A DNA stretch of 62,942 nt, counting the filler, from Conidiobolus incongruus B7586 (taxonomy: Eukaryota), in assembly GCA_000697335.1 (NCBI GenBank). It is 30 parts of 30 records of this genome, joined end to end, with 100 filler letters (N's around TTAATTAATTAA, not from the genome) between each part and the next. Parts side by side here need not be neighbours in the genome. Positions count along the whole stretch, not along the records: positions 1 to 1,301 come from JNEM01004332.1; positions 1,402 to 2,635 come from JNEM01004333.1; positions 2,736 to 4,399 come from JNEM01004334.1; positions 4,500 to 6,002 come from JNEM01004336.1; positions 6,103 to 7,614 come from JNEM01004337.1; positions 7,715 to 8,880 come from JNEM01004341.1; positions 8,981 to 10,668 come from JNEM01004343.1; positions 10,769 to 12,526 come from JNEM01004346.1; 22 more parts are not named here. One strand, given 5' to 3'. The position numbers and the translations under genes are program-made. The first letter of the stretch is position 1. Each line of letters starts with the position of its first letter. Shown piece after piece: positions 1 to 62,942 of the stretch. The notes under the pieces are model-generated. The model was given only the letters and a program-made list of their open reading frames with translations. It had not been told where the DNA came from and searched no databases.

Positions 1-1242
1 AATATATATATATATATATTTATCTATTATATATCTATTAGATATTTATTAGTCTTCTTTATTATTAATATCTTTTTACCATATTTTTAACAAATTTTTA
101 ATATCTAAAAAGCTGTTTTATTTTTTAAAAACTGAAATTTGATATTTTTTAAACTAATTAAATTTTTTTAATAAAATTTTTTTATAAGCTAGATTTTTGA
201 TTACCTAAAGCAATTATAATTACATAGGTTATAATTTAAGCAATATATTAGATATGAAAGTTTTTTCTAGTTATTTTCAATCAGGAAGTTTATTACAGCT
301 TTAGATTTATATATTTTATAATTATTGTACAAAATAATAGGCTTTTTTAAATTATATTAAGAATATTAAATAAAAATTATTTTATTTAAAAAATCAATAT
401 AAAGTTTATTATTAATTTATTTTCCTTTAAAAACTAAATAAAGGTAATATATACTATTATAGTATACTATAATGGTTAATATTTATTTATCAATAAAATA
501 TTTATTTAAAAAAATATATTAAAGGGGTTGATTTAGCTTAATCCAACATTTTAATTTTTGTTTTGATAAAAGACTTTATAGAAAAATCTAAGGCTTATCA
601 ATTATAATTATTTATTATAAAAGCTTAAATTTCTAATAATAGTTTAGTAAGTTTTATTTAATAATAGCTATTTTAGCATTTTTTAAGATTTAGTTAAACT
701 ATAAAATACAAATTTTATATTTTCAATTATTAATTTAAGTATTAGCTTTAATATAAATAAAATACCTATAAAACATATATTATACTGTTTAGATAATTCT
801 TTAACAAAAATAACAAGATATTTTTCAAAATAATTTTTAATTTATTAAAAATTAAAAGATTTATAATTAAAATTAGCATTTTAGATTTTAACAGATTTTA
901 GATAATTTTTTTTAGTTTTTAAATAATTTACCAAATGATAAATTACTGATCTGAATGATATTTTATTATTAAAAGCTATTTGTAAATTTAAATGATTTTA
1001 GAGAATTTATGGTTAAATATTATTAATACCAGAATAAAAGACTTTTCATAATTATTATTTGGTTTAATTATAATTAAACTAAATAACTAATTTTAAAAAG
1101 TTAATTTTTTAATTAAAAAATTATTATATATATATATATACACTTTTTTGTTTATTTTGTTTATATTTGTTTATTTAAATCAAATTATATATTTAAAATA
1201 TCATAAATTAAAAAATTTCACATTATTTTAAATTAAAAATCA
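1..1242 (-). mobile_element. Mariner (DD34D) transposon, degenerate, near full length
   Basis: Minus-strand translation around 210-340 reads IL(Y/H)(N/D)N..K.YKSKAV.NFLIENN*KKL...Y..NYNLC(N/D)Y, i.e. HDN-34-D after reverting transitions. TIR-like end AAAAATTTCACATTATTTTAAATT near 1211-1242. Confidence 0.85.
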
Positions 1243-1301
1243 TTTTATAAGATATTTTGAAATAAGGATAAATTAATATAATAAATATTATATTTAATAT
1301 A

Positions 1302-1401
1302 NNNNNNNNNNNNNNNNNNNNNNNNNNNNNNNNNNNNNNNNNNNNTTAATTAATTAANNNNNNNNNNNNNNNNNNNNNNNNNNNNNNNNNNNNNNNNNNN
1401 N
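1302..1401. other. Assembly spacer N44-TTAATTAATTAA-N44 (first of 29 identical spacers)
   Basis: Identical 100-bp unit with six-frame stop linker starts at 1302, 2636, 4400, 6003, 7615, 8881, 10669, 12527, 14084, 15321, 16493, 19531, 20684, 23616, 24723, 25933, 27109, 29431, 30669, 31952, 33150, 40917, 44488, 45929, 47161, 53594, 55046, 57824 and 61478. Artificial, not biological. Confidence 0.98.
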
Positions 1402-1409
1402 TTAAAATA

Positions 1410-2532
1410 TATTAACCTGTAAAAATAAGTTATAAAATCAAATATATATATATATTAATTAATAACTAAAATAATTGTATATATTAGATCACTTAAAACA
1501 AAAATATATAATTAAGATATATTATTGAATAATAAATAAATATATTCAAATATATTTAATAAACTACTAGCAAAAATATTAACCTTTAATATTTAACCAA
1601 GATAAATTATATTTGTGGGTTTTTGAGATAAAGGGATATATTTAACAATATATAACCATATCTTTTTTCTCTCTTTGTTATTATTTTATATAATATTTTA
1701 CAAATATACTAAGTTTTTTTATTAGTATCATTATACTTAAATCCCTCTTTAAAAAAATCTACTTATATATTAATCAACTTTATAAAGAAAATAAATCAAT
1801 TTGTGATATTGTTAGAATTACTAGTGTTAGCTAGTTTATTATAGTTAAAACTATTAAGAATAACAATAAAGAAACATTTAAACTTAAATTTAAATATGTT
1901 AATATTATAGATAAACATGATAAGAAATATATTTATAGGTTAGTTAATATAAGTAAATATGGTAATGCTATAAAAATATAACAGGAATTATAAAACTATA
2001 TAAAAATATTAGTTAACATTGATACTATTATCATTAGATATAAAGTATCTTTATAGAGTTAATAGGGGAATTAATATTAAAATGTACTAAAGTATTCTAA
2101 ACAATAAATTGAAAAAAACCATTGAATAATATAGGTTAAATATATCTAATGTTATTTTCTAGTAAAATAATATTTCTTGTTATATTACAAATTTTATTAC
2201 TAAATAGCTTAAAAATAACAAGATAATAGTTATGTAGTAGTTTTTTCAATCTCCTAACCTTAATCTAATTAAATACCTTTAGGATTAGTTAAAAAAAGTT
2301 ATTAAAGTTTTCCCTATAGTAAAAAATTTAAATCAACTTTAAAAATATATTTAAGAAGTATAAAATAAGATTAACTTTTCTTAGTATAAGAAGTTAATTA
2401 ATTCAATACCTTATAAACTTAAAGAGGTTAGAAAAGCTAAAGGTAAATACACTAAGTTTTAATTTTTTTTTATTACCAAAAACCTATAAATTTATAACTT
2501 ATCTTAGGTAAAATTTAAAGGTTTATATTTTA
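1410..2532 (+). mobile_element. Tc1 (DD34E) transposon, internally deleted, right end interrupted by mariner
   Basis: Terminal ATTAACCTGTAAAAATAAGTTATAAAATC; collinear with the 4510 copy except for a ~290-bp deletion near 2030; degenerate WPPQSPDLNPIEHLW at ~2238-2283. Confidence 0.85.
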
Positions 2533-2635
2533 TTACTCTGTATTTTTAATAATGGGATTTTTTTACAATTAAAAATAAATAAACATTTGAATATATGATA
2601 TATAAAAATAAATATATAATATAAATTTAATAGTT
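2533..2635 (-). mobile_element. Mariner terminal fragment inserted at TA in the Tc1 right end
   Basis: TA|TTACTCTGTATTTTTAATAATGGGATTTTTT matches mariner termini at 16714, 56467 and 61387. Confidence 0.8.
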
Positions 2636-2779
2636 NNNNNNNNNNNNNNNNNNNNNNNNNNNNNNNNNNNNNNNNNNNNTTAATTAATTAANNNNNNNNN
2701 NNNNNNNNNNNNNNNNNNNNNNNNNNNNNNNNNNNATAATAAACTTATTGTTATTTGATTATATATATATATATATATA

Positions 2780-4509: not shown

Positions 4510-6002
4510 TACTAGCCTACAAAAGTAAGTTATAAAATTAAAATTACTTAAATATTTACTTTTATCTTAAATAATTCCTAATTAAATAAATTTAAATTAA
4601 AATATATAATTTACCTATATTAATTGATTATAACTAACTATATTTGAATATATTATATTAGCTATTGGTTAATATATTGAAACCTAAAATTTAACCAAGG
4701 TGAGTTATAAATTTGCAGGTTTATTAGTTAAAGGAGTATAAATAACAAAACTTATATATATCTTTTTTTGTTGTATTATATATATTATAAAATTATTAAG
4801 CTAATATTTTAAAATTAATATTATAGTGCTTAAATCTCTCTCTAAAAAACTTCACTTATATATTAATCAACTTTATAATAAAAATAAATCAACTTGTGAA
4901 ATTGCTAGAATTACTAATGTTAGCTAATTTACTATAGTTATGGTTATTAAGAACAATGCTAAAAAAACACCTAAACTAAAACTTGAGTGTGTTAAAATTA
5001 TAGATAAGCATAATAAACAGTATATTTGTAGATTAGTTAGTATAGGTAAGTGTAATACTATTGTAGAAATATAACAAGAATTATAAGACTATATAAGAAT
5101 ATTAATTAATGTTAATACTATTATATATATTCTATGTTAGAATAGATATTGCTTACACCTTAAGAAAAAACACCCCCAACTAAAGAAGTCCAATTGTAAA
5201 GTTAAGCAAGAGTTTAAATATCAATACTAAAGTTGAATTAAAACTAACTAGAGTAAAGTTATTTAGTTTAATGAAATAAAAATATATTTTAATAGATTTA
5301 ATAAAAAAGCTAGATATTTTAAAAAAGATAAAGAACTACTTTATAACCATTATGTTATTACAACCCAAAAATATAATAGTAGGTTAATTATAGTTTAGGG
5401 ATATATGTTATCTTTAAGTGTAGGGTATCTTTATAGGGTTAATAAGGGAATTAATACTGAGATGTACCAAATTATTCTAAATAATAAATTGAAAAAAACT
5501 ATTGAATGGTATAGATTAAAAAAATCAAATATTATTTTCTAACAAGATAATACTCCTTGTTATACTATAATTTGTACTATTAAATAGCTTAAAAATAACA
5601 AAATAACTATTATGAAATAGCCTCCTTAATCTCTTAATCTTAACCCAACTAAATATCTTTGGAATCAATTAAAAAAATCAATTAAAGCTTTCCCCCTAAT
5701 AAAAAATTTAGATTAACTTTAAGAGTATATTTAAGAAGATTAGAATAATATTAGTCTTGTTTAATATAAAAAGCTAGTTGACTTTATACCCTATAAACTT
5801 AAAGAAGTTAAAAAAACAAAAGATAGATATACTAGATATTAATTTTTCTATCAATATTAAAACCCACAAATTTATAACTTATCTTAAGTATATTTTAGTA
5901 TTAATATATTAATTAATAATTAATTAAATTTAACTATATATTATATTATAAATAAAAAATATATATTAATTACATAGTTTAATATAAGTTTATTTAAATT
6001 AG
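4510..6002 (+). mobile_element. Tc1 (DD34E) transposon, right end cut by gap
   Basis: Left TIR TACTAGCCTACAAAAGTAAGTTATAAAATT; inner DR AAGGTGAGTTATAAATTTGCAGG near 4697; contains the best-preserved transposase frame. Confidence 0.92.
4826..5842 (+). pseudogene. Tc1-family DD34E transposase pseudogene (338 codons, no frameshift)
   Basis: A single 1017-nt frame reads KKKHPQL, *SKVI*FNE (WSKVIWSDE), IV*GYM (MVWGCM), F*QDN (D at 5546), *PP*SLNLNPTKYLW (WPPQSPDLNPIEHLW, E->K at 5651, D34E spacing) and ends KDRYTRY* (KGGYTRY). About 18 premature stops by my manual count, all derivable from CAA/CAG/TGG/CGA. Confidence 0.92.
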
Positions 6003-6197: not shown

Positions 6198-6328
6198 TTA
6201 TGTTGAATTTAAAATAATAGGAAATTTTTGAATTTCTGATTTTTCCAACATATTATTAGTTTGAAATAAATAAATATATACAAAGTTAATAAGAAATTAT
6301 ATATTTTGAAAATATATATATATATATA
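6198..6328 (+). mobile_element. Mariner 5' end, interrupted by Tc1 insertion in its (TA)n tract
   Basis: TA|TTATGTTGAATTTAAAATAATAGGAAATTTT TIR; reverse complement matches 19470-19530 and 1140-1242. Confidence 0.7.
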
Positions 6329-7614
6329 TACTAGCCTATAAAAGTGAGTTATAAAATTATGATTACATATATTATTATCAATAACTCTGTTAATTTTTAA
6401 TCAAATTAATTTAAATCAAAACATATAATAAACTTATACTATTTATTTATAATTAAATATATTTGATCTAATTATATTAACTTTTAGTTGATATATTAAA
6501 GTTTAAATTTTACTTAAGATAAGTTATAAATTTGTATATTTTAGTTATAAAAACAAAATTAAAACTTAATATATCTACCTTTTGCTTTCCTAACTTCTTT
6601 AAATTTATAGGGTATAGAGTCAACTAACTTCTTATATTAAAAAAGATTAATTTTATTCTAAGCTTCTTAAATATATTCCTAAAGCTTATTTAAATTTTTT
6701 TCTAGTGGGAAAACTTTAATTGTTTTTTTTAATTAATCCCAAAAGTGTTTAATTAGATAAAAGTTAGAAGATTAAAAAAACCACTTTATAACTATTATTT
6801 TATTATTTTTAAACTATTTGGTAGTAGAAATAATAGTATAATAAAAGATATTATCTTGTTAGAGAATAACATCTGATCTATTTAACCTATACTATTCAAT
6901 AGTTTTTTTAATTTGTTGTTTAAAATATTTTAATATATCTTAATATTAATTCCCCCATTAATTTTACAAAGATACCTTATACTAGAAGATAATATATATC
7001 CCCAAACTATAATTAACTTATTATTATATTTTTGGGTTAAAATAACATAATAATCATAAAGTAGTTTTTTGTCTTTTTTGAAATATCTAGCTTGTTTATC
7101 AAATCTACTAAAATATATTTTTGTTTCAATAAATTAAATAACCTTACTCTAATTAGTTTCAGTTTAACTTTAATGATAATATTTAAACTCTTGCTTAACT
7201 TTATAGTGGGATTTTTTAATTAAGGGTGTTTTTTCTTAAGGTGCAAATAGTATCTATTATAACATAAAGTATATATAATAATATTAGTATTAATTAATAT
7301 TCTTGTATAATCTTGTAATTTTTTTTATACTTTTATAATAATATTATATTTACTTATATTAACTAACCTATAAATATACCTTTTATTATATTTATTTATA
7401 ATCTTAACACACCTAAGTTTAAGTTTAGATATATCTTTACTATAATTTTTAACACCTTTAGCTATAATAAACTAGCTAACACTAGTAATTCTAATAATCT
7501 TATGAGTTAATTTATCTTTACTATAAAGTTAATTAATATATAAATCTTTTTAAAGAGGGATTTAGGTATTTTAATACTAATATTATTTAAAATAATAATT
7601 TACAATGATAATAT
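6329..7614 (-). mobile_element. Tc1 transposon, degenerate
   Basis: TIR TACTAGCCTATAAAAGTGAGTTATAAAATT after (TA)n; reverse complement of the transposase region from ~6568 to ~7570. Confidence 0.9.
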
Positions 7615-8980: not shown

Positions 8981-10668
8981 AAGGAGAATAAGTTAGTTTT
9001 AACCTTATAAATATTATCTTAAAGTTAATAGCATTTTAATTAGAGAAAATAAAACTAGCTGATTTAAAATACTTAGTCTATAAATAAATACTTTTTACCT
9101 TAATAAAAATAATTAAAAATCACTTATATTTTTTATCCTATAACTCTTTTTCAATATTTATAAATTATAAATCACTTATTTACTTAAATATTTAAAAGTA
9201 TTTATTAAAAAGATAAGTTAAATAAATTAAAATTATTTAAGCTTATTTTTTCTTTATCTAATATCTCTTAAGTTAATAGAATTATATTTTAGATATTATG
9301 TTAAAAAATCCTATATATTTATCCTATTATTTTAATTTTAAAAACTTAGCAAATATTAACTTAATGATTATTAACAAAAGAAATAAAGAATTTATTAAAT
9401 TATTTTAACAAATACTATTAAATAATAATTTCTTTATTTTAGTTCAAACAAAACTCTTTATATTATTAGAAAATTAATTAAAATATATCAAAAAATTTAA
9501 AAATATTGATAACCTGATATATTATAATAATTATTTATATGTCTTTAAATTTCTTAAGATTTAATAAGTAATATTTAATAAATATTATAATTTATCTATT
9601 AAAAATATTAAAACTAATTAAATATTGTTAAGTGAATTAAAATAATATATTATTAACTTGCTTTAGTTATATTAATTCAGAAATACACTAATACTAATGA
9701 TATATATTATAGAATTAAATTTAATACCCAATTAAAATATAATAAACTTATTTTTTTATAAATCCCTAATTAACCTTAATAATGAATCCAACTTGATTTT
9801 ATAAAAATTCTTAAATCAACAAATAAATTTAATAGCTTATTAATTGTAATTAATTAATTCTTTAAATATATTTATTTTATTCTTTTTTTCAAAACTTTTA
9901 TAATAAAAAATATAATATAATTATTATTGTTTAATATTTTTACCTAATATAAAACTTTACAAACTATTATATTTGATAAAGATATATAATTTAATTTTTA
10001 ATTTTAAATGTTATTATCTTTTTCCTTTAAGATTAATCTAGCTATATTTATTATTAATTATTATTAAATTCATAAACTTATTGCAAAAACTATTAAAAAC
10101 TTAAAATAAATGATTAAAGCTTATATTAACACTAATTAGTTAAATTAATATATTTATATCTATTAACTTTAATATTCATTTAATAATTTTATTAATAAAT
10201 TAATAAATTTTAATTTTTATTTTATTAATTATAAAAAATATCTTAATTTAATAATTGCTTTAAAACTTTAAATCAATTTTTTTAAATACTATAGAATTTT
10301 AATCTAATATCAAATATATTAATTTCTTTATTAAATTTAACTTAAAAGAAAATTAAAATATCATAAAACAGTAATATTTAAAATTATTTATAGATCCTTT
10401 TAAATATAAAACTAATATGTTTATATATTTAAAGTGATGATTTTTTAAACTTACCTTATTTAAATTTAGCTTAAATCTAAAATATTTATGATTATATTAT
10501 ATTCTCTATATAATTTGGTTTATTAATTTAAATTTTAAAAATATTATCTTAAAATTATCTTTAATTTTAAAGATCAACTTTACATTTTACATATCTAAAA
10601 TCAAGCTTTATTTTAAAGTTTTTAATACTTTTCTTAATTAATTAAAAGCTTTAAAGCTAGATTTAATT
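8981..10668 (+). mobile_element. Ty3/Gypsy family C pol remnant (RNase H - integrase - GPY/F)
   Basis: Translation IAF*LEK..LADLKY.VYK*ILFTL, FINYKSLIYL..*K.L.KR*VK*I (TDHKSL.YL..Q..L..RQ.RW); collinear with 58520-60210. Confidence 0.85.
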
Positions 10669-10775
10669 NNNNNNNNNNNNNNNNNNNNNNNNNNNNNNNN
10701 NNNNNNNNNNNNTTAATTAATTAANNNNNNNNNNNNNNNNNNNNNNNNNNNNNNNNNNNNNNNNNNNNATATATA

Positions 10776-12335
10776 TACTAACTTATAAAAATAAGTCATA
10801 AAATCAAAAATATATATATTTTAGTTAATAATTAAAATAATAATATATATTAAATTACCCAAAACTATAATTTATAATTAAGGTATATTATTTGATAATA
10901 AATAAATATTTTTGGATATATTTAGTAAACTGTTAATAAAAATATTAACCTTTAATATTTAACTAATGTGAGTTATAAATTTATAGGTTTTTAAGATAAA
11001 AGAATATATTTAACAATATATAACCTTATTTTTTTTATTTTTTTATTATTATTTTATATAATATTTTAGAGATATTTTAAATTTTTTTAATATCATTTTA
11101 TCTAAATCCTTTTTAAATAAATTTATTTATATTTTAATCAACTTTATAAAGAAGGTAAATTAACTTATAATATTATTAGAATTACTAATATTAGTTAGTT
11201 TACTATAGTTAAAATTATTAAGAATAATAATAAAAACATATTTATACTTAAACTTAAATATGTTAAAATCATAAATAAATATAATAAAAAGTATTTTTAT
11301 AGATTAATTAATTCAAGCAAGTATAATACTATTATAGAAATATAATAGGGATTATAAAATTATACAAGAATATTAGTTAACACTAATATTTTTATATATG
11401 CTTTATATTAATAAAGATACCACTTATATTTTAAGAAAAAACATTATTAATTAAAAAAATCCTATTATAAAGTTAAGTGGGAGTTTAAATATTATTACTA
11501 ATAATAAACCAAAACTAATTAGAATAAGGTTATTTAATTAAATAAAACAGAAATATATTTTAGTAAATTTAATAAAAAATCTAGATATTTTAAAAAAGAT
11601 GTAAAATTATTTTATGACTATTATATTAATTTTACTTAAAAATATAATGATAAGTTAACTGTTATTTAAGGATATATATTGTCTTTAAATATAAATTATC
11701 TTTATAAAGTTAATGGGGGAATAAATATTATAATATATTAAAGTATTTTAAATAATAAATTAAAAATAACCATTGAATAATATAAGTTAAATAAATCTAA
11801 TATTATTTTCTAGTAAGATAATAACTTTTATTATACTATAGCTTTTACTTGCAAATTACTTAAAAAAAACAAGATAATAGTTATAAAGTAATTTTTTTCA
11901 ATTTTTTAACCTTAATCTAATTAAATATCTTTAAAATTAGTTAAAAAAAGTTATTAAAGTTTTATCTTAAAAAAATTTAAATTAATTTTAAGAATATGTT
12001 TAAGAAATATAAAACAAGATTAACCTTTTTCAATATAAGAAGTTAATTGATTTTATACCCTATAAACTTAAAAAAGTTAGAAAAGCTAAAGATAAATATT
12101 TTAAGTTTTAATTTTTTTTATTACCAAAAACCTACAAATTTATAACTTATCTTAAATAAAATTTAAAGGTTTATATTTTAACCAATTAATAACTAAAAAT
12201 CATCATTTAATAATATATATTATTAATAAATTTAATAGATTTTAATTATTTAATTTAGTTTTAATTTGTTAAATATTAATTATTAGTAAAAATATAAGTG
12301 TTTTTGATTTTATGACTGATTTTTATATATTAATA
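10776..12335 (+). mobile_element. Tc1 transposon, full length, degenerate
   Basis: TIRs TACTAACTTATAAAAATAAGTCATAAAATC ... GATTTTATGACTGATTTTTATATATTAATA flanked by (TA)n; full transposase remnant. Confidence 0.88.
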
Positions 12336-12642
12336 TATATATAAATCTATTAATCATTAAAATTAATATATATAAGTATTTATAAACTATATATCTGATT
12401 GTTTTATTATTATAATATATATTATAAAACAAATATATTGAAAATTATATAAAGAATATTTCTTTTACCAAATGTTTAAAAATATTTAATATCCAATTTA
12501 TAATTTAAATAATTAAATTTAATTATNNNNNNNNNNNNNNNNNNNNNNNNNNNNNNNNNNNNNNNNNNNNTTAATTAATTAANNNNNNNNNNNNNNNNNN
12601 NNNNNNNNNNNNNNNNNNNNNNNNNNAATATTAATTTATTTA

Positions 12643-16436: not shown

Positions 16437-16440
<4 letters not shown>

Positions 16441-16713: not shown

Positions 16714-17898
16714 TTACTTTGTAATTTAATTATTGGGAATTTTTTGTAATTAAAAAAAATAAATATTTTAATATATAAAAAGTAAAAATATATGTATAAT
16801 ACAAAATTAATATTTTCTTTTATTTTCAATAATTTTTTGCTATATTTTTGGCAAAGATCTAACACTTAAAAAATAGTTTTTTTATTAAAGATTGAAATCT
16901 GATATTTTACAAATCAATTAAATTTTCATACAAAAACTTTCTTTCTAACAAGCTGGTTTTTTAATTACCTAAAACAACTATAATCACATAGGTTATAATC
17001 TAAAAAATATACTAGATATGGTAGTTTTTTCTAGTTTTTTTAATCAAAATAACCTTTATATTTTTAGATTTAAATATTTTATAATTATTATGCAAAATAA
17101 TAGGACTTTTCAGATTATATTATGAATATTAATTAGAAATAGTTTTATTTAAAAAAATATATAAATTTTATTATTAATTGATTTTCCTTTAAGAACTAAA
17201 TAAAAATAGCATATGATATTATAATCTATTTCAACAATTAACATTTGCTAATCAACAAAGTGCTTATTTAAATGAATTTGTAGAGAGGGTTGATTTAGCT
17301 TGATCCAACACCTTAATTTATGTTTTAATAAAGGATTATACAAAGGAATCTAAGATTCATCAATTATAATAATTCATTGTAAAAGCTTAAGTTTCTAGCT
17401 ATACCTTAGTAAGTTTTATTTAACAATTACTACTATAGCTTTTTTTAAGCTCTAGTTAAATTATAAGGTACCTATTTTATATTTTTATTAATTAATTTTA
17501 ATTTAAACTTGATTATATATAAAATACTTATATAACTAATATTAAAATATCTTGATAATTCTCTAACTGAAATAAAAAGATGCTTTTCAATAAATTTTTT
17601 ATTTTTTTAATAATTAGAAAAGTAAAAGTTAAAATTAATCTTCTATATTTTAGCAGGTTTTAGGTAGTTTCTCTTTTAACTTTAAAATACTTTACCCAGT
17701 GATAAATTATTGATTTAGATAATATTTTATTATTAAAAGTTGCTTGAAAATTTTAAATGATTTTAAAGGATTTATTGTTAATTTTTACTACTACTAAAAT
17801 AAAAAACTTTTGATAGTTATTATTTGGATTAAATATTATCAAATTAAATAACTAATTTTAAAAATTTTTTTTTAATCAAAAAAGTTATTATATATATA
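16714..17898 (-). mobile_element. Mariner (DD34D) transposon, interrupted by Tc1; 5' end resumes at 19469-19530
   Basis: Minus-strand motifs: HTH LSKSIIYHWVKYFK, K*VPYNLT (KWVPHNLT) at 17451-17477, ILHNN...*KKLPY.VY..DYNLCDY (YSPD.. and third D). Confidence 0.9.
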
Positions 17899-19468
17899 CA
17901 TTAACCTACAAAAGTAAGTTATAAAATTAAAAAAATATAAATTTCTATTAATAACTTAATTAATTCTAATTTAAATAAACTTATATTAAACTATATAATT
18001 AATATATATTTTTTATTGATATTATAATATATAAAATTAAATTTAATTAATTATTAATTGATATATTGAAACTAAAAGTATATATAAGGTGAGTTATAAA
18101 TTTGTGGGTTTTAGTATTGATAGAGAAATTAATATCTATTATATCTATCTTTTGCTTTTCTAACTTTTTTAAGTTTAAAAGGTATAGAGTCAACTAGCTT
18201 TTTATATTAAGCAAGACTAATATTATTCCAAGCTTTTTAAATATACTCTTAAAGTTGATTTAAATTTTTTATTAGGGGGAAAGCTTTAATTTAATTTTTT
18301 AGTTGATCCTAAAGATATTTAATTAGGTTAAGATTAAAAAATTGAAGAGGCTATTTTATAATAATTATTTTGTTATTTTTAAATTATTTAATTGTAAAAT
18401 TTATAGTATAGCAAGATATATTATCTTGTTAGAAAATAATATTTGATATTTTTAATCTATATCACTCAATATTTTTTTTAATTCATTGTTTATAATATTT
18501 TACTATATCTTAAAATTAATTCCTCTATCAATTTTACAAATATACCTTAAACCTAAAGATAATATATATCCACAAACTATAATTAACCTATTATTGTATT
18601 TTTAGGTTAAAATAACATAATGGTTATAAAATAGTTCTTTATCTTTTTTGAAATATCTAGTTTTTTTATTAAATTTATTAAAATATATTGTTATTTCATT
18701 AGACTAAATAACTTTACTTTAGTTAGTTTTGGTTCAAATTTAGTATTGACATTTAAACTCCCACTTAACTTTATAGTAAAACTTCTTTAATTAAAGGTGT
18801 TTTTTCTTGAGATATAAATAATATCTATTTTAATATAAAACACATATAATAGAATTAATATTAACTAATATCCTTGTATAATCTTATAATTCTTGTTATA
18901 CTTATATAGTAATATTATACTTACCTATATTAACTAATTTACAAATATACTTTTTATCATGCTTATCTATAATATTAGCACACTTAAGTTTTGATTTAGG
19001 TGTTTTTTTAGCATTATTCTTAATAACTCTAGCTATAGTAAATCAACTAATACTAGTAATTCTAGTAATCTTATAAGTTGATCTATTTTTATTATAAAGT
19101 TAATTAATATATAAGTGAACTTTTTTAGAGAGATATTTAAGCTTTATAATATTAATTTTATAACATTAGCTTAATAGTTTTATAATATATATAATATAAC
19201 AAAAGAAAAAAAAGATATATATATAAATTTAATTATTTATATCATTTTAATTGATAAACCTATAAATTTATAACTTATTTTGGTTAAATTTAAGGTTTTG
19301 ATATATTAACTAATAGCTAATGAAATATAAACAAATATAGATAGTTATAATCAATTAAAATAGGTAAATTAAATATTTTAATTTAAATTTATTTAATTTA
19401 GAATTATTTAAGTTATAGGTAAATATTTAAGTATTTTTGATTTTATAACTTATTTTTGCAGGCTAGTG
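17899..19468 (-). mobile_element. Tc1 transposon, full length (1570 bp) with TA target-site duplication
   Basis: TA|CATTAACCTACAAAAGTAAGTTATAAAATT ... GATTTTATAACTTATTTTTGCAGGCTAGTG|TA; inner DRs at ~18086-18108 and ~19257-19283. Confidence 0.93.
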
Positions 19469-19630
19469 TATATATATATTTTAAAACTATTTATTTTCCT
19501 ATTTGTTTTGTATATATATTATTATTTATANNNNNNNNNNNNNNNNNNNNNNNNNNNNNNNNNNNNNNNNNNNNTTAATTAATTAANNNNNNNNNNNNNN
19601 NNNNNNNNNNNNNNNNNNNNNNNNNNNNNN

Positions 19631-35810: not shown

Positions 35811-35858
35811 CTTTAAATTTCTTTTTGATGACAATTTATGATTTGGATCAGTGTATGC

Positions 35859-35865
35859 TTATATA
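35859..35865 (-). promoter_or_regulatory. Putative TATA box of the carboxypeptidase gene
   Basis: TATATAA on the minus strand ~50 bp upstream of the ATG; weak evidence in so AT-rich a context. Confidence 0.35.
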
Positions 35866-46028: not shown

Positions 46029-47160
46029 TAATTAACTTTATAAAAAAATACATTAACCTATAATATTGTTAAAATTACTAGTTTTAGCTAATTTACTATA
46101 GTTAAGGTTATTAAGAATAATAATAAAAATATATTTAAATTTAAACTTAAATATGTTAAAATTATCATTAAATATAATAAAGAGTATATATATAAGTTGA
46201 TTAATTTAAGTAAATATAATATTAATATAAGAATATAATAAGAATTATAAAACTATATAAAAATTTTAATTAACACTAATATTATTATATATCCTTTAAT
46301 TTAATATACATACCACCTATATCTCAAGAAAAAATATTTTTAATTATAGAAATCTAATTATAAAGTTAAGTAAGAGTTTAAATATTATTTTCAATATTAA
46401 ACTAAAATTAATTAAAATAAAATAATTTAATGAAACAAAAATATAGCTTAATAAATCTAATAGAAAAGCTAGATATTTAAAAAAATATAGTTCTACTTTA
46501 TAGTCATTATGTTGATTTTACCTAAAAGTATAATAATAAGTTAATTATTATTTAATATTATATATTATCTTTAAATATAAAGTATTTTTGTAAAATTAAT
46601 AAGGGAATTAATATTAAGATATATTAAAATATTTTATAAATAAATAAAAAAATACTAAAAAATAATATAGGTTAAATAAATTTAAAATTATTTTTTAGCA
46701 AAATAATATCTTTTGTTATATTATAGTTTTTATTACCAAATAACTTAGGAATAATAAAATAATAGTTATAAAGTAGTTTTTTTAATTTCTTAACCTTAAT
46801 CTAATTAAATATTTTTGGGATTAATTAAAAAAAGCTATTAAAATTTTCCTTTTCATTAAAGATTTCAATTAGTTTTAAAAAATATTTAAGAAATATAAAA
46901 TAAAATTTATTATTTTCAATATAAAAAGCTAGTTGATTTTATACCCCATAAATTTAAAGAAGTTAAAAAAATTAAAGATAAATATATTAAATTTTAATTT
47001 TTTTTATCATTAAAAACCTATCAGTTTATATTTTATCTTAAGTAAAATTTCAGAGCTAATATTTTAACTAATTAATAACTAAATATCATTATTTAATAAT
47101 TTATATTATTAATAAAAATATAATGTTAATTATCTAATTTAAGTTTATTTTATTAAAAAT
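46029..47160 (+). mobile_element. Tc1 transposon, partial
   Basis: Collinear with 11135-12275. Confidence 0.85.
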
Positions 47161-47260: not shown

Positions 47261-49612
47261 TGTTTAAATATCATATTGTTATAATGAATTTCAAGTAATT
47301 CTAACTTTAAATCAAGTATATCAAGTATATAGAAATAACTATAATAATAAAATAAGTTAATTTAAAACTTATAATATTTTATATAATAAAGTATCTTAAT
47401 ATTTTTATTAATAATTATATATGATTTTATAGTATTATAAAAGTTATTATTGTATAATACATTCTTAATTGTCTTATTTATATTAATGGTATAAATTAAG
47501 TTAATATTATTGTTATTAATATTATTTTTTTGATATTTGATATATAATAGGATATATTTAATTCTTCTAGATAATAAATTAGTAATTTTATTATATTTTT
47601 CCTTTATATATTTTGTATATAGGTTAAATACTTGAATTAAACTAATTTAATTAACTTGGTGTTTATTAAGATATTTTTAACTATTAAAATATACTAGGGA
47701 ATAATAATCTATAAGGATATATACTAATTTAGATAATATATAAGGTTTAAAATATTTTAAACATTTAATTAAAATAAGTAGTTTTTTTATATATATAATA
47801 ATATAATTCTAAAAGTGACATTTTTATTAAATATAAGACAATAAAATATAAATTTAATTTTTTAAAAATAATTTTAGTAATCTTTACTCCCTTTTCAAAT
47901 TAATTAAAGAATAAAATATTAAAGTCTTTAGAATTAGATTAAGCTGACTATTTATTTATAATAAAGTAAAAAGCATCAGTGAATATAATCATAGGTAAAT
48001 TAAGGTTAAATGAAATAAAATAAAAGATGATAATAACAGAATAAATCAATTTAAAAAAAATAATATATTCTTTTAAAATTTGAGTTTATTTTATATTATT
48101 CTTTAATAAATTAGTTAATAGTGTTAAATTAACTACAAAAGCTTTTATAGAGTTATAAAAATAATTGGTAATTCTAAAAAATAATTATAAAAAAGTTATA
48201 TTAATAGATATAAATTATTCATTAATATTAGAAATTTTCTCAGGACTTATATATATACTTTTAAAAGATAAAATATAACCACAAGAAAAGACTTTGTTTT
48301 TAACAAATATATATTTAATGAGTTTAATAAAAAACTTATTTTTGCAAATATTTTAAATACATTTCTAAAATATTTAATATAATAATTTAATAATCTAAAT
48401 TAAAATGTTATTTAAATAAAAAATAAAACATAAATCTTAGATTTTGAAAAATAAATTATTGATAAGTTGAGAAAAAACTATAAAAGCATTATAAAGTTTA
48501 AAATATAAAATTATAAATTTATAATATTTAAATTTAATATTAAAAGTAGTTAAAAGAATAAAATCAAGATTTATTATAATATTATAATATTTATCATGAT
48601 ATTTAATTTAATATAATATTTATATTTTATAATTAAATTTCTTAGTTTAGTGAGATTAAAAAAAGATATACAATCTTTAATTATTTTCTTATTTAAAACT
48701 TTAAAATGTATATAAAATCTTAAGCCATTATTTTTTTTAATAAAAAATAACAAGTAAACTTTAGGAAGAGGTAAATGGTTTAATAAAACTTTTATTCAAT
48801 AACTTCTTCAAAATATCTTTTAAAATAGTATTTTTTTATAAGGATATATAATAAAGTAAGTGCTGAATTATTTGAATTCTTAGTTTAAGTTTAATATAAT
48901 GTTTTACATTTTTCTTTAATAGAATAAAAGTTTATAGTTAATATAAATTAAAGTATTCAAGTATTAAATTATATAATAAATATTAAGGAGTTAAATTTCT
49001 GTTAGTAGTAATATTTAAATTAATTCCCTCAACATAATATATTTTAGATTAATTAATTTGGATAAAAAAAATCAATCCTTTATGTTTAAAATATTTAGCT
49101 TTAATAATAGAGTTAAATGATTTTTTTATAACAATTAAGTTATTAAATTTAAGTTCATCATAATTTTTTTAAATTTTATAATTTTTTCTATTTTTTTATG
49201 TTTTTGGGAGGTTTTAACAATAATATATTGATAATTATTGTAATATATAAATTAGTTTGTATTGCTTAAAGTAAATGATAAATATTTATGAATTTAATCT
49301 AAATATAAAATAATATTATACTATAATAGGGCAATGATAAGTTTAAGGGTTTATTTATAGTTTAAAGTTAAAGAAATATTAGTAATAATATATTTAAAAG
49401 AATTAAATTTAAAAAGATTAGCTATAGTAATTATATAAGGTCCTATAATAATTAATAAATTAAAATTTTTTATATGATGATAATTAAAAAAAATATCTAA
49501 TAGCTTTAATATCAATTAAATTTAATATTAAGTGAGTATTTAAATTTTTAATGATAATTAAAGATCTAATAAATCTTATTTATATAGTTTAAATTTTAAT
49601 AGTTTTTTAAGA
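47261..49612 (-). mobile_element. Ty3/Gypsy family E remnant (protease - RT - RNase H)
   Basis: Minus strand: LIDIKA (LIDTGA) ~49503-49520, YNIIL.LD* ~49295-49320, KLLNKSFIKPFTSS*SLLVI (GFI.PS.SPW.SP) ~48750-48805, YLNNILI (YLDDILI) ~48398-48418, RNase H KLLIL.KCLK.F..Y, IDYYSL, NKITNLLSR ~47565. Confidence 0.88.
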
Positions 49613-49937
49613 TATTAGTAATTATAGGTTTAGATGTAAATATAAAACTAATATTATAGTTTATATTGATATTAGTAATTGTAATATTATTTATAATATA
49701 GCAACCATTATATTATTTAAATTATTAACTATTTAAGTTTTATATTAAATAATTATTAAATTTATTCAATTAATTAAAGTTAATATATAAAGGAAATTAA
49801 ACCAAAAAAGGTTTATTAATAGATTAATTATACTAAAGTCTTCCTTTTATAAAAAGACATATTATTTAATTATATATAAATAAAAAAATTGTGTTATAAT
49901 TTATAAAAATTTTAAGAGTTATTATTGTTTTATAATA
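49613..49937 (-). repeat. Putative 3' LTR of Gypsy family F
   Basis: Begins TATTA (TGTTA) immediately after a polypurine tract AAAGGGAG (49938-49945, minus strand); the left boundary at TAATA is tentative. Confidence 0.5.
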
Positions 49938-52900
49938 CTCCCTTTAAACTTAATATAATAAAATAAAGTCACTCTTTAAAATAATTAAGACTGTTTATTA
50001 AGGAATTTTCTTAAAGCTTCAAAGTATATAATATTTTCTTTATTTTCCCAAATAGCTTTATTAAAAAATTAACTTTTCTAGTATATAAGGTATTTATTTT
50101 GATTCTAATAAATTCAATAATCTATAATCTTATTAACAACATATATTTTGTATTATCAGATAATAAAGAGGGTAAAAATAAATAGTATATTTAAGAAAAT
50201 ATTCTCTAAGATTTTAATATAACTTTAACAACTTTATATAAAAAACAAAATAAATTTATAAGTTAAAAGTTAAGATTAATTTATATATATCTAGCTATAA
50301 TCTTTTATTATTGGTAAAATAAAGTCTTAATTATTAATATAAAAATTAAGAAATAGCAAATTTTTTAAATTCTAATCTTTCAAACATATTATACATTTTG
50401 AAAGATTATATATATATAATTATATTGGAAAATAAATATTTTCAAACTATATATATATAATTAATTTTTATTATTATTTTTATTAAAATATTTTGATTTT
50501 GAAATTTACACCTAAATTTAATTATACTTATATTGGATTGTGATTATCAAATGGTTTTTATTTTTTATCATTAAAACTTAATCATAAATCATTCAAAATC
50601 ATCTAAATCTTGCAAATAGCTTATAAAGATGGTGCTTTATCTAAAATTACCATATATCACTAGATTTGTGATTTTTAAGCTAGAAGGGATATTAATCAAA
50701 ATTTACCAAAATCTAAAAGATTAATTTCTATTGTTACTTTTTTATTTACTAATAAAGTAAAAAAATATATTAAGAAATATTTTTTTATTTCTACTAGAGA
50801 ACTATTAAAAGAATTGAATATTAATTATATAAGCATATTATATTTAATTAAGTTTAAACTTAAATTAATTAATAAAAATGTAAAAAAGATACCTTATAAT
50901 TTAATAGAAATATAAAAGAAAACTAGAGTAATTAATAGCTAAACTAAACTTATTAAGATATAACCAAAAACAAAGGTTTTTATAGTAAATACTTATAATG
51001 GATGAATCTTAAATTTCTTTATATAATCCTTTACCTAAAAATAAAACAAAATGTTAGGTTAAGCTAAATCAATCCCCTCTATAAATTCCAATAAAAAACA
51101 ATTTAAATATAAGCAAATGATAATTATTATAATAGATTATATTGTTATATGGTTTTTTTATTTAATACCTCAAGGCAAATCAATTAATAGTAAGTTATAT
51201 ATTATTTTTTTAAATAAAACAATTTCTAAATAATGTTCTGAATATAAATTGAAGATATCTATTATTTTACATGATAACTGCAAAATATATAAAGCTAAAG
51301 CTGTAAAAGATTTTTTATATAAAAAAATTAAAGGGAGTTACTATATCTAATATATTTACCTAATTATAACCTATATAATTATAATTGTTTTAGACAATTA
51401 AAAAAACAGCTTATAGGAAAAAAATTCCTGTAAACCAATTAAATTGGTTTGTGAAATATCAAATTTTAGTCTTTAATAAAAAAAAATATTATTTAGATAT
51501 TAGAAGCTTACTAAAGGTATAGAAAAGAGTTATTAATAATAAAAATAGCTATTAATTTTATATTTTTGATTAATATTTATATATTATTTATTAATTTATT
51601 TGTTTAATTCTAATTTTAAAATTGTGCCATTATTTAATTTCTATACTAATATTTAATTAATAGTTTATTGGTAGGTTAACTAAAGTTTTAAGGAAAATTA
51701 ACTCTATCTAAAATAATAATACTAAAATATTAGGAGATAAAATAAAAAAAAGATAGATATTTAAATTATAGTAATAAGCTTATTTATTTAAAATAAAGAA
51801 AATATAGTCTTAAGCTATAAATAAAAAAGAATATATCTACTCTATAAAGTTTATAACATTAGATAAGATATCAATATTAAATATTACATTAATAATTTAA
51901 ATAAGATATTAGATATAATTTAAGTAAAATAATATTATATTTATAGATAAGTTAACTCGATTGTTAAAAACAAATTTAAATAGAGATAAATTTTTAACTT
52001 AATTTTTCCTATTATAATTAAGGTAAGATTTAAAAACTTCCTTTAAAACAAAAATTGCTTATTAAAATTAATTATTATATTATTGAAGATAAGATATTAT
52101 AAGGTTATATTCACAACCTAATAATTTTATAAATAAAAACTAGAATTTACTTATTAATTTTATATTATAGTTTATTATAATAGTTGATGGAAGCTTATAA
52201 TATCTAAAGATATTCTTAATAAATAACTTAATGATAGTTTTTAAATTAACTTTCTTATTAGTTTATATAAAGTATATTATTTTTGTTAAGTAATTTAAGA
52301 TAATAAAAGCACAATTAAAACTATCTAAAGTTTATAATGTTTTAATAAAATCTATAGTAATATTAAACCAACAAGTTTAGGAAATAGGTATGAATTAAAT
52401 TGCTAAAAGGGAATTAGTTAAGATGTATATTAATTTAATATTAATCATAAAAGCAAATGTAATTTTATATATCTTTTTTTATATTAAGCTAGTAGATATT
52501 ACAGAAGAGCTTATATTATATATAGAGTTAATTTTAATAACCTAATATAGTAAAATTATGAGAAAAGTTTATCAGTTATAGTTTAATATTTAATATATTA
52601 AGAATATAGATATATAAATTATAATAACGTAGGTTATTATTATATGAATAGTATTTTATATTAGTTTAAATAGAATCATTCAAGTTGCAAATATAATTTT
52701 TAATTTTTAAAACATAACTATTATTAAGAAATATATTTTAAATATTATTTTATATAGTTAACTAAGATTTTTTTAAAGAAATATTATTTAACTTAATATA
52801 AATTAATTTATATTAACTTTAAATAAAAGTATAATTAAATTGTCTAGAGATAAATTTAATAAAAGTATTATATTTTCTTGTAATAAAATAGATATATAAG

Positions 52901-53593
52901 TTAAATTTTTAGAGAAATTTATTCTATAAAGATTAATATTTAAATAATTAAAGTTGATTGTTAATTTATATAATAATTTTATAATCTGTGAGTGAATAGA
53001 TAAATTAACCTAATGAGTAATAACAGAAATATTTAAGATATTTAATAATAACAAAAACTTTTTGATTATATACTAGGTAGTTAATTTCTATAGAAGTTAT
53101 TTTAAAAGAAGAAAATATAATAGGATAAAGATTAAAGTGTTTTAAATCTAGTAATTTAATTATTATTCTCTTCTTAATTTAATTTAAGTAAATGAGATTA
53201 TAATCTAAAGAATTAAGTTAACTTAATTAACTATTAATAATAAAGCTAAAGATGTTTGTGAATAAGATTATTAGTATTAAAAAGTTAAAGCTATAAAGTA
53301 TAAAGGTATTACTAACAATATTAATAATTGTTAAATAAGTAGAATATTCTAAAAGAGTTTATATCTATAGAGATAATTTATAAAATAAGTTAATTAATAA
53401 TAGAATAATTTTTATATAATCATCAATAAAGTTTTTGGAATAGTTTACTATACCTAAAAATAATATAAAAAATATCTTTCAACAAAGATAAATTAAGATT
53501 ATATATATTAAATCTTATCTAAATTAATTTTAATTCCATCAGAAAATATAATATAGCTATTAAATAAGATTTCTAAAATAATAAAATAATATT
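49938..53593 (-). mobile_element. Ty3/Gypsy family F (chromovirus) remnant: RNase H - integrase - chromodomain, split by a mariner
   Basis: Minus strand: YPIIFSS....EINYLVYNQK.F.IIK.LK.F ~53030-53125; IPIS*TCWFNITIDF...FNCAFIILNYLTK..YFI ~52265-52395; IYFVFYIKLLKLY (IHPVFHV.LLKPY) ~50220-50256; chromodomain YVVNKIIDY*...KYLIY*KS.....AIWE ~50045-50145; stop at 49985. Confidence 0.88.
50334..51649 (+). mobile_element. Mariner (DD34D) transposon, full length (1316 bp) with TA TSD
   Basis: TA|TTAATATAAAAATTAAGAAATAGC ... GCCATTATTTAATTTCTATACTAA|TA; MDES*I.LYNP (first D) ~50998, ILHDNCK ~51264, KIPYNL ~50886. Confidence 0.92.
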
Positions 53594-56460: not shown

Positions 56461-56466
56461 AAATTA

Positions 56467-60418: not shown

Positions 60419-60815
60419 TATTAAGAGACTAATTTTTTAAATATATATATATATATTTCAATATAATTTAATTAACTATAAATTATATAATTAATTTACA
60501 TTTTTATAACTAAATCAATTATATAAATAATATTAAATTATCTAATAAATTAGGTTTTTTTCTTTTAATTGTTACTATTTCTTATCTCTTTTGTTATTTT
60601 TAAAATTAAGATTATATCTTATTAATATTATAGTATATTAGCGCCACCTAATATAAATTTTCATATATCAGTGACTTATCCTAGTTTGAAGCTTAATTAA
60701 ACTTTGTTTATATTTATACACTATAGCTATATTATAGTATTATATTTTATATTATATTACTTATAAATTAATATCTTCCTTTATATTATATTGATATTTT
60801 ACCATTATATTTATA
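60419..60815 (+). repeat. Putative 3' LTR of Gypsy family C
   Basis: Follows a purine run; 60475-60815 matches 27212-27545. Confidence 0.65.
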
Positions 60816-60945
60816 AATTAAATTAGTTTGTAAAATATTAAATTTTAGTTTTTAATTAAAAAAAACTATTTTTTAAGTATTAAAAGCTTGCCAAAAATAT
60901 AAAAGAAGTTACTAATAATAAAAAAAGCTATTAGTTTTATATTAT
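60816..60945 (+). mobile_element. Mariner 3' fragment
   Basis: Matches 51438-51560. Confidence 0.7.
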
Positions 60946-60999
60946 TTATTATTTTTTATATATTATTTATTAATTTATTTTTTTAATTTTCATTTTAAA

Positions 61000-61386
61000 A
61001 TTATATTATTATTTAAATTCTATATTAATATTTTTATATAAATTTTATGTTAATATAGACATTATTTATATTTTAAGAAAAAACACACTTAACTAAAAAA
61101 ATCTTTATATAAAGATAAATAAAAATTTAAATATTATTATTAATATTAAACTAAAAGAAATTAAAATAATATTATTGAATTTTATAAATAGATATATATT
61201 TTAATTAATCTGATAAAAAAGTTAAAAATTTTAAAAAAGATATAGAATTACTTTTTAACTATTATATTAATTTAAATAAAAAATAAATTAGTAAGCTATT
61301 TATTATTTAAAAATATATATTATTTTTAAATATATAATATCTTTATAAAATTAATATAGAAATTAATATTAAAATTTATTAAACTA
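61000..61386 (+). mobile_element. Tc1 transposase fragment interrupted by mariner
   Basis: TTAAGAAAAAACACACTTAACTAAAAAAATC (KKKHPQL) and downstream region match 5160-5470. Confidence 0.75.
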
Positions 61387-61477
61387 TTACTCTACATTTT
61401 TAATAATGGGAATTTTTTGTGATTAAAAATAAATAAACATTTGAATATATAATATATAAAAATAAATATATAATATA
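61387..61477 (-). mobile_element. Mariner terminal fragment
   Basis: TA|TTACTCTACATTTTTAATAATGGGAATTTTTT. Confidence 0.8.
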
Positions 61478-61577
61478 NNNNNNNNNNNNNNNNNNNNNNN
61501 NNNNNNNNNNNNNNNNNNNNNTTAATTAATTAANNNNNNNNNNNNNNNNNNNNNNNNNNNNNNNNNNNNNNNNNNNN

Positions 61578-62942
61578 ATTTTTAATATCTAAAAAATAAT
61601 TTTTTTATTAAAGATTGAAATTTAATATTTTATAAATTAATTAAATTTTTTTGCAAAAAAATTTTTTTATAAGCTAGTTTTTTAATTAATTAAAGTAATT
61701 ATATTTATATAGGTTAAAATCTAAAAAATATAATAACAATAGTAGTTTTTTTTAATTATTTTTAATTAGAAAATTTTCTAAAACTTTAAATTTATATATT
61801 TTAGAACTATTATACAATATAATAGGTTTTCTCAAATTATATTATAAATACCAATTAAAAATAATTTTATTTATAAAGTTATATAAAAATTATTATTAAT
61901 TGATTTTTCTTTAAATCTAAATAAAAATAATATATATTATTATAATCTATTATAAAAATTAATATTTATTTATTAACAAAATATTTATTTAATAGGATTT
62001 ATAAAGGAGGTTAATTTAGCTAAATTTAACATTTAGATTTTTGTTTTAATAAAGGATTATATATAAATAATAAAGAATAATCCTGTTAATTACTCAAAAA
62101 ACTCCAATTACCATAGGATTTAAGAAGTCACATTGGAGATATTATATCCCATGAATTAGTTGATCCTATTATTTTTTGCTTATAAGTCATTTAGATCCAC
62201 AAAAATCAATAATGGAATTTAATATAAAATTATTATAAACAAATTAATAAATATATCTTTTATTTTTATTTTCAAAAGTATATAATCTCTAAGTTTTTTT
62301 ATAACCCCCACAAAAATATTAAGTTATGATAAATATAAGATATTTATTTTATTCAAAAAACTCAATTTATAGCAAATCATTTTCACCTACTTTGGTGAAC
62401 CCTAATTATTTCCCTTAATTCTATGGTAATTTATTGTTTACCACTGGTGATTCCCTGTTTAAGCTTGTAAAACTCACTGTTATCAGTGTTAACCCCTAAA
62501 ATAAAGATTTACAATATATCAATTATAATTATTTGTTATAAAAACTTAGTTTTCTATAAATATTTTAATAAATTATGTTTAGTAATAAATATATTAGTTT
62601 TTTATAAAAATTTAGTTAAATTATAAAATTTTTATTATATTTTTAATTATTAATTTAAGTTTAAATTTTAAAATATATAAAATAATTATAAAACTAATAT
62701 TAAAATATTTAGATAGTTTTCTAATTAAAATAAAAAGGTTTTTTTTGATATATTTTTTCATTATATTAATATTTAAAAGAATAATAATTAAAGTTTGTTT
62801 TATAAATTTTAACAGGTTTTATATAATTTTTTTTAATTTTAAAGTAATTTACACAAAAATAAATAATAATTTTAAAAAATTTATGATTAAGTTTTATTGA
62901 AATTAATTGAAAATATTTTTAATAATTATTTTGGTTTATATA
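61578..62942 (-). mobile_element. Mariner transposon, partial, carrying a ~420-bp foreign insertion
   Basis: Collinear with 95-960 except for 62077-62499. Confidence 0.83.
62077..62499. other. Unclassified structured insertion within mariner
   Basis: Absent from other mariner copies; flanked by AATAAAGA at 62069-62076 and 62500-62507; contains internal inverted repeats. Confidence 0.65.

What the first reader, a model, noticed from the sequence alone, without database searches (positions are those of the whole stretch)
1..62942. RIP-like repeat-targeted C->T hypermutation in a probable early-diverging (non-Dikarya) fungus
Seen: all five TE families, DNA and retro, are destroyed by C->T/G->A transitions on both strands with few indels. 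The Tc1 frame 4826-5842 keeps all 338 codons but has ~18 stops from CAA/CAG/TGG, and catalytic D/E/H/G codons become N/K/Y/S. The single-copy genes at 34572-38791 are untouched and keep CpG and CpA. Known: this is the signature of repeat-induced point mutation (RID/Masc1-type methyltransferases), characterised in Ascomycota and with variants in some Basidiomycota. Inferred: the intronless M14A and class A GPCR genes suggest an entomophthoralean (Zoopagomycota) host, where such a genome-defence system is not well established as far as I know.
Basis: partly seen in the sequence, partly recalled or inferred. Interest (0 to 1): 0.88.

Follow-up and report, generated by a model that had tools for sequence, protein, structure and literature searches.

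The report
Graded C-to-T transposon destruction in Conidiobolus
In a Conidiobolus-type fungus, outside the groups where repeat-induced point mutation (RIP) is established, dead transposons have had most cytosines changed to thymine (nearly all before G, most before A or T, fewer before C) while neighbouring genes and spacers lack this signature, likely the scar of a repeat-targeted DNA methyltransferase acting as a RIP-like mutator.

Summary
The window is 30 small contigs joined by artificial spacers. Its two genes match Conidiobolus coronatus best among named proteins (77%, 54%), and a mutated mariner piece shares their contig. Against an intact colinear Tc1 transposase, 1567 codon differences in 14 copies need only C>T/G>A and 112 need the reverse. 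Anchored hits per site: CpG none kept of 95, CpA 1.8, CpT 0.7-1.4, CpC 0.15-0.44, against 0.016 for T>C. Repeat-rich contigs hold 13 CpG where 216 are expected. Unique non-coding DNA is AT-rich (18% GC) but keeps CpG and CpA. In simulation, genome-wide AT bias, CpG-only decay and a CpA-only pattern each fail to reproduce this. It is therefore repeat-confined, all-context, graded hypermutation. It works like RIP, but membership is not shown: the spectrum differs, no strand-coherent patches appear, and RID, pairing dependence and sexual timing were untestable. Best reading: mutagenesis linked to a DNMT1/DIM-2-class methyltransferase (0.55); a true pairing-triggered RIP analogue 0.25. RIP-like indices were already published for other Entomophthorales. 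I found no such report for Conidiobolus, but two key papers were unreadable.

The parts
4826..5842 (+). Least damaged Tc1 (DD34E) transposase relic: 338 codons, 18 internal stops, no indel
   Evidence: weak DDE_3 hit, E 3e-5, below curated cut-off; colinear with intact P0124
2769..4336 (+). Full-length Tc1 copy with both terminal inverted repeats
17889..19479 (-). Full-length Tc1 copy, abutting a mariner copy on the same contig
10769..12343 (+). Full-length Tc1 copy
1407..2535 (+). Internally deleted Tc1 copy
6319..7606 (-). Tc1 copy; further minus-strand copies at 19631-20683, 23716-24722, 26033-27108, 32052-33149, 44645-45928, 53748-55045
46029..47160 (+). Tc1 copy; a further plus-strand fragment at 60992-61388
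1..1250 (-). mariner-type relic; further copies at 7715-8880, 12633-14020, 16700-17890, 20784-21471, 24823-25932, 29772-30666, 50277-51660, 55480-56456, 56457-57815, 61578-62922
   Evidence: family named from motifs I recognised from recall in a script translation; no Pfam hit for the one copy scanned
33250..33873 (-). CpG-free mariner fragment on the same contig as the host genes (links repeats to host)
   Evidence: nhmmer E 2.6e-27, no hit in 20 block shuffles; a second fragment at 41017-41423, E 3.2e-18
8981..10668 (+). Ty3-like retrotransposon relic (RNase H to integrase); partner at 58526-60207, 82.6% identical
   Evidence: weak RT_RNaseH hit E 0.038; integrase recognised from recall
47261..53593 (-). 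Two Ty3-like relics flanking a mariner copy
   Evidence: weak RT_RNaseH hits E 0.035 and 0.005; 2 CpG in 6333 bases
27861..29043 (.). Unidentified two-copy repeat (partner 30771-31946) with the same signature
   Evidence: ts/tv 3.7, 0 CpG of 11 expected; no Pfam hit in six frames
34575..35810 (-). Intact M14A carboxypeptidase gene (control and taxonomic anchor)
   Evidence: 0 of 12 lineage-specific residue changes are of C>T/G>A type
37841..38791 (-). Intact 7tm_1 receptor gene (control)
33900..44100 (.). Unique DNA of two contigs (includes one spacer and short repeat ends): keeps CpG and CpA

Best explanation
Transposon copies in this Conidiobolus-type genome have lost cytosines by C-to-T change on both strands at roughly 40-100 times the background rate, graded CpG > CpA > CpT > CpC and confined to repeats, likely because a DNMT1/DIM-2-class cytosine methyltransferase marks them and the marked cytosines are deaminated and left unrepaired. 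Shown: direction, repeat confinement, context order, size relative to background, strand symmetry. Inferred: methylation, the enzyme class, and recognition through heterochromatin rather than DNA pairing. The process would be fast enough to kill a new copy before ordinary mutations accumulate, and would slow as targets run out. Some hits were inherited, so partly mutated copies were likely still duplicated or mobilised in trans.
For: Polarity 1567 vs 112 among 4222 codon comparisons. Anchored counts over 217 of 338 codons: CpG 0 of 95 kept, CpA 53 kept vs 280 lost, CpT 127 kept vs 236 lost, A/T sites 1248 of 1300 unchanged. Trp codons read 12 TGG, 44 TAG, 2 TGA, 52 TAA; equal rates rejected by 24 log units. 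Repeats CA/AC 0.69 and CG/GC 0.022 vs unique non-coding 1.42 and 0.76, bootstrap intervals not overlapping. Of five rate sets simulated, only the graded one came near the observed Tc1 values. No strand bias and no spatial clustering, as expected for independent events. Precedent: Dim2 raises C>T in methylated repeats during mitosis in Zymoseptoria (PMC8016269, passages). DNA_methylase genes are reported in all Entomophthorales of PMC11105155's set (passages).
Against: No methylation data and no enzyme were seen; no genome was held. In Zymoseptoria the Dim2-dependent mutations are >98% CpA and spare CpG, unlike here. 5mC is described as scarce in Zoopagomycota (PMC11258239, passage). A front-loaded model fits better than a clock (9.6 log units) and nearest copies sit at 80-87% identity; both suit pairing-triggered RIP equally well. 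The fitted rates undershoot the observed CpA loss a little (0.72 vs 0.57).
Confidence: 0.55

Rival explanations
1. A true RIP analogue: duplicated DNA is detected by homologous pairing at a sexual or resting-spore stage and mutated in bursts until copies fall to about 80% identity, by a RID-like or convergent methyltransferase with a broad context.
For: The three copies with least background (0.5-0.9% transversions) have already lost 54-64% of anchored C/G. Intercept model preferred with site heterogeneity allowed. Nearest-neighbour identity 80-87%. RIP composite index positive in 85 of 124 windows. RID-architecture candidates reported in Zoophthora, Entomophaga and Entomophthora (PMC11105155).
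Against: No strand-coherent patches (autocorrelation -0.017 to 0.005). Strand loads do not differ in 12 of 13 copies. CpG loss is near total. A survey of 633 fungal proteomes found RID only in Dikarya (PMC5751038, passages). The identity plateau and the intercept could both come from short-read assembly collapsing near-identical young copies.
Confidence: 0.25
2. Ordinary CpG methylation decay on top of a strong genome-wide AT mutation bias, with unique DNA held up by selection.
For: Unique non-coding DNA is only 17.7% GC, and some stretches without an in-window partner are 11.5-12% GC. A<->T is the commonest transversion.
Against: GC>AT exceeds AT>GC about 50- to 90-fold in repeats (my ratio), against about 4.6 implied by 17.7% GC at equilibrium. 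CpA is hit 4-13 times faster than CpC. Simulated CpG decay plus AT bias gives CA/AC 1.02 and CT/TC 1.16 vs observed 0.57 and 1.81. Unique DNA shows the opposite ratios (1.42, 0.75).
Confidence: 0.1
3. A methylation-independent cytidine deaminase acts on transposon DNA (for example on R-loops or single-stranded intermediates).
For: Very high C>T rate outside CpG; methylation not demonstrated.
Against: The preference lies in the 3' neighbour and the 5' neighbour has almost no effect (0.33-0.37 kept for all four bases), whereas APOBEC-type enzymes are recalled as 5'-context specific. DNA transposons and retroelements are hit alike, on both strands.
Confidence: 0.06
4. The repeat contigs come from a contaminating ascomycete with ordinary RIP, or are an assembly artefact.
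For: The window is a concatenation of separate contigs.
Against: A mutated mariner fragment lies on the contig with the Conidiobolus-type genes, and mariner, Tc1 and Ty3-like relics share contigs. The runs that hold 97-100% of the gene region's words also lay 18,201 and 21,761 contigs on the Tc1 copy (one sample, possibly the source, so not independent). A CpA-dominated spectrum would keep CpG.
Confidence: 0.04

Closest known systems
Repeat-induced point mutation (RIP) of Neurospora crassa and other Pezizomycotina (RID/Masc1, with DIM-2)
   Same: Repeat-confined C:G>T:A transitions in DNA and retro elements, nonsense codons at Gln/Trp, CpA well above CpC, genes spared, positive composite index.
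   Different: CpG is the strongest target and is almost erased; CpT is hit at about half the CpA rate; no strand-coherent patches; host outside Dikarya; RID, pairing and premeiotic timing not shown.
Dim2-dependent mitotic C>T mutator of Zymoseptoria tritici (PMC8016269, passages read)
   Same: C>T confined to repeats, far above background, strong at CpA, no need for sex.
   Different: There >98% of C>T are at CpA and CpG is spared; here CpG > CpA > CpT > CpC. Enzyme not identified here.
RIP-index signal and RID-architecture methyltransferases in Entomophthorales (Zoophthora radicans 24.2% of genome; PMC11105155, passages read)
   Same: Same order of fungi; same suggestion of RIP-like activity outside Dikarya.
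   Different: That result rests on dinucleotide indices only, and the passages read give no value for a Conidiobolus. Here direction, context and rate come from aligned copies and an intact outgroup.
CpG decay of methylated transposons in Basidiomycota and some lower fungi (Clutterbuck 2017; title seen in a reference list only)
   Same: Near-total CpG loss restricted to repeats.
   Different: Non-CpG cytosines are also lost at 0.7-1.8 hits per site (CpT, CpA); CpG-only decay leaves about 42% GC in simulation against 15% observed.

Membership tests
RIP (Neurospora type) | C:G>T:A transitions confined to repeated DNA | tested here: met
RIP (Neurospora type) | CpA is the dominant target | tested here: not met
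   CpG 0 of 95 kept vs CpA 53 of 333; CpA-dominated simulation (recalled rates) keeps 162 CpG vs 3 observed
RIP (Neurospora type) | Strand-coherent, clustered mutation within a round (recalled feature) | tested here: inconclusive
   None detected, but many rounds near saturation would erase it
RIP (Neurospora type) | Triggered by pairing; stops near 80% identity (threshold recalled) | tested here: inconclusive
   Nearest copies 80-87%; confounded by assembly collapse of young copies
RIP (Neurospora type) | RID/Masc1 orthologue present and required | not testable with these tools
   No genome held; literature survey places RID in Dikarya only
RIP (Neurospora type) | Acts between fertilisation and karyogamy | not testable with these tools
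   Needs crosses or zygospore progeny
Dim2-type mitotic repeat mutator (Zymoseptoria) | C>T almost only at CpA, CpG spared | tested here: not met
Dim2-type mitotic repeat mutator (Zymoseptoria) | 5mC on repeats and a functional DIM-2 gene | not testable with these tools
   No methylome or proteome for this organism in session
CpG-only 5mC decay of transposons | Excess C>T limited to CpG | tested here: not met
   CpA 1.84 and CpT 0.7-1.4 vs T>C 0.016 per site; simulation
Tc1 transposase (for the main repeat) | HTH plus DDE domain, DD34E spacing, terminal inverted repeats, TA flanks | tested here: met
   P0124 has DDE_3 and HTH_Tnp_Tc3_2 with D241 and E276; copies colinear; inverted repeats and TA-repeat flanks

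The most novel reading that the evidence does not exclude
Conidiobolus has a homology-triggered, burst-like genome defence outside Dikarya, run by a non-RID methyltransferase, that strips more than half of a new transposon's cytosines in all contexts (CpG > CpA > CpT > CpC) soon after insertion: an independent or ancestral form of RIP.
Probability: 0.25. Interest if true: 0.85.

Novelty: new variant of a known kind. Interest (0 to 1): 0.56.

Why it matters
RIP is treated as a Dikarya trait, and early-diverging fungi are described as having little 5mC (PMC11105155, PMC13297926, passages). A polarised, quantified, non-CpG repeat mutator in Conidiobolus turns an index-only hint for Entomophthorales into a measurable spectrum. 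It bears on whether RIP arose from an older methylation-linked mutator, and on why close relatives have genomes above 500 Mb. The genus is culturable (recalled), so methylome and mutation-accumulation tests are within reach.

Tried and rejected
No whole genome was held, so no methyltransferase or deaminase search was possible. Word-based protein search with the read-through Tc1 frame found nothing among 2045 candidates; the profile search did. No listed run holding the gene region is on record as RNA. Runs X5 and X7 laid nothing on the Tc1 copy, which is no proof of absence. Single-copy read depth and a between-strain mutation spectrum for unique DNA were not obtained, so copy number is only 'high' and the unique-DNA control rests on composition and one gene. 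5' vs 3' inverted repeats within a copy differ by as many transversions as transitions, so they were imperfect at insertion and give no clean clock. The GC-restored consensus understates CpG (3-18 sites) and cannot date CpG loss; I replaced it with outgroup anchoring. BLAST hits weaker than about 1e-13 in this AT-rich DNA include self-palindromic matches and were ignored. The unidentified pair gave no frame or family. Bewick 2019 and Clutterbuck 2017 were not held. Supplements of PMC11105155 held no methyltransferase terms; those of PMC5751038 gave no RID counts for Conidiobolus. bioRxiv 2023.01.30.526367 does not mention Conidiobolus.
Full report
What the window is. It is not one locus. Twenty-nine identical 100-base spacers (44 N, a 12-base all-frame stop linker, 44 N) join 30 contigs of 1.0-7.7 kb. 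Most contigs are single transposon copies at 11-19% GC, and one 7.7-kb contig carries two genes. Arrangement and repeat density are therefore artefacts; the sequence within contigs is what can be read.

Host. The M14A carboxypeptidase is 77% identical over its full length to a Conidiobolus coronatus protein and 92% to an unnamed one; the next genus is at 45%. The 7tm_1 receptor had 3 hits among 1062 candidates, the best C. coronatus at 54%. NCBI places that species in Entomophthorales, outside Dikarya. A CpG-free mariner fragment lies on the gene contig (nhmmer E 2.6e-27; none of 20 shuffles hit), and mariner, Tc1 and Ty3-like relics share other contigs. The runs that hold the gene region also lay 18,201 and 21,761 contigs on one Tc1 copy, with 271 of 317 and 267 of 314 listed differences being transitions (one sample, possibly the source). 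The repeats belong to this fungus and the Tc1 family is very abundant.

Direction. Fourteen Tc1 copies were aligned. Choosing G or C wherever any copy has it lowers stops from 26 (majority) to 4, but that assumes the direction. An independent anchor came from a profile search: P0124, an intact 338-residue DD34E transposase that aligns without gaps. Of 4222 codon comparisons, 1279 give the same residue, 1567 are explained only by C>T/G>A from the intact residue, 112 only by the reverse, and 1264 by neither. Residues with A/T-only codons are kept at 88-94%; A, G, R, W, M, C, H, Q, D, E and P at 5-28%. Four intact relatives from metagenomes carry 46-86 CpG per ORF, so the ancestor very likely had them.

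Context and size. At 217 of 338 codons where the outgroup residue explains at least 70% of copies, CpG (8 Arg sites) is kept in 0 of 95 observations, CpA in 53 against 280 lost (1.84 hits per site), CpT in 50 against 157 and 77 against 79 (1.4 and 0.7), CpC about 0.44. At A/T sites 1248 of 1300 are unchanged, with 21 T>C/A>G, 26 A<->T and 5 others. This selection excludes subfamily-wide differences, so the background is that of private changes. Ten Trp codons give 12 TGG, 44 TAG, 2 TGA and 52 TAA, fitting CpA 2.1, CpT 1.2, CpC 0.15 (bootstrap 0-0.51) and rejecting equal rates by 24 log units. The 5' neighbour has almost no effect. Pairs of the Ty3-like, unidentified and mariner families also differ most at CpA among the well-sampled contexts; their CpC counts are small and mixed.

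Confinement. Outside 33900-44100 there are 13 CpG in 50,277 bases against 216 expected and 318 GpC. Reversed-pair ratios for repeats are CA/AC 0.69, CG/GC 0.022, CT/TC 1.61, TA/AT 1.14; for unique non-coding DNA 1.42, 0.76, 0.74, 0.87, with no overlap of bootstrap intervals (167 and 33 blocks). The first CpG appears about 200 bases from the mariner fragment. In the M14A gene 0 of 12 lineage-specific changes are of C>T/G>A type and 6 are of the reverse type (under selection). Against this reading, unique non-coding DNA is itself only 17.7% GC and some partnerless stretches are 11.5-12% GC, so a general AT bias exists too. Simulation on the four intact relatives shows that the graded rates approach the observed Tc1 values (GC 0.157 vs 0.154, CA/AC 0.72 vs 0.57, CT/TC 1.51 vs 1.81), whereas context-free bias, CpG decay alone, CpG decay plus bias, and a CpA-dominated set with recalled rates do not.

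Timing. Background transversions vary about tenfold among copies (0.5-6.9%), while the C>T load varies about two- to threefold; the copies with least background have already lost 54-64% of anchored C/G. With site heterogeneity and counting noise allowed, an intercept of 0.89 plus 37 times background beats a pure clock of 71 times background by 9.6 log units. This suggests front-loading, but short-read assembly drops near-identical young copies and can mimic it. Strand loads do not differ in 12 of 13 copies and residuals show no clustering. Mutations are not wholly independent: 11 nonsynonymous losses are shared across a subfamily against 3.4 expected, and some sites are protected in all subfamilies (odds ratio about 4).

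Mechanism. Shown: a repeat-confined, two-strand, 3'-context-graded C>T process about 40-100 times background. Inferred: a cytosine methyltransferase, because CpG is the first target and the 3' base sets the rate. I favour a DNMT1/DIM-2-class enzyme marking transposon chromatin, with deamination or failed repair fixing T (0.55), over a pairing-triggered RIP analogue (0.25). The data cannot separate the two firmly. It works like RIP in outcome; it is not filed as RIP, since the CpA-dominance test was not met and RID, pairing and timing were untestable.

What is in print. [quoted passage not shown] PMC5751038 (passages) found RID only in Dikarya in a data set that included two Conidiobolus assemblies (only those with proteomes were screened). 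PMC8016269 (passages) gives the Dim2 mitotic mutator. PMC7862722, PMC13297926 and PMC11258239 (passages) give methyltransferase background. Ten searches showed no report of this spectrum in Conidiobolus, but Clutterbuck 2017, whose title covers 'some lower fungi', and Bewick 2019 could not be read. Earlier scan notes describe similar decay in Jimgerdemannia, Dimargaris and Basidiobolus-like genomes; these are unchecked leads, and they describe CpT as spared in Jimgerdemannia, whereas here CpC is the spared context.

Verdict. Real and well supported as a pattern; a new variant of methylation-linked, RIP-like repeat mutation in a lineage where only an index-level hint existed; mechanism open. 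Interest 0.56.

Noticed in passing
window 62084-62490: A 0.4-kb insertion splits a mariner copy. It is 23% GC with 0 CpG but CpA largely kept (CA+TG 39 vs AC+GT 32), as if only the CpG stage has run. Short inverted ends; unclassified.
   Followed up: partly
whole window, 29 spacers: Contigs are joined by 44 N + TTAATTAATTAA + 44 N; other windows of this record will show false adjacency and repeat density.
   Followed up: yes
window 14184-16420 and 21600-23615: 11.5-12% GC DNA without an in-window partner and without CpA loss (CA/AC 1.8-2.3): very old relics or AT-rich spacers. Unexplained.
   Followed up: partly
window 55480-57815: Two mariner copies in inverted orientation, adjacent on one contig.
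   Followed up: no
Tc1 copies 2769-4336, 10769-12343, 17889-19479: Long (about 220 bp) imperfect terminal inverted repeats with a similar motif at the outer and inner ends, flanked by TA microsatellites; three subfamilies by transversions.
   Followed up: partly
window 37841-38791: 7tm_1 (rhodopsin-family) receptor in one open frame, with only 3 database relatives found.
   Followed up: no
P0124 cluster; L001-L004: Intact relatives of this Tc1 family exist in unnamed assemblies and metagenomes, 46-57% GC for L001-L004; hosts unknown.
   Followed up: partly
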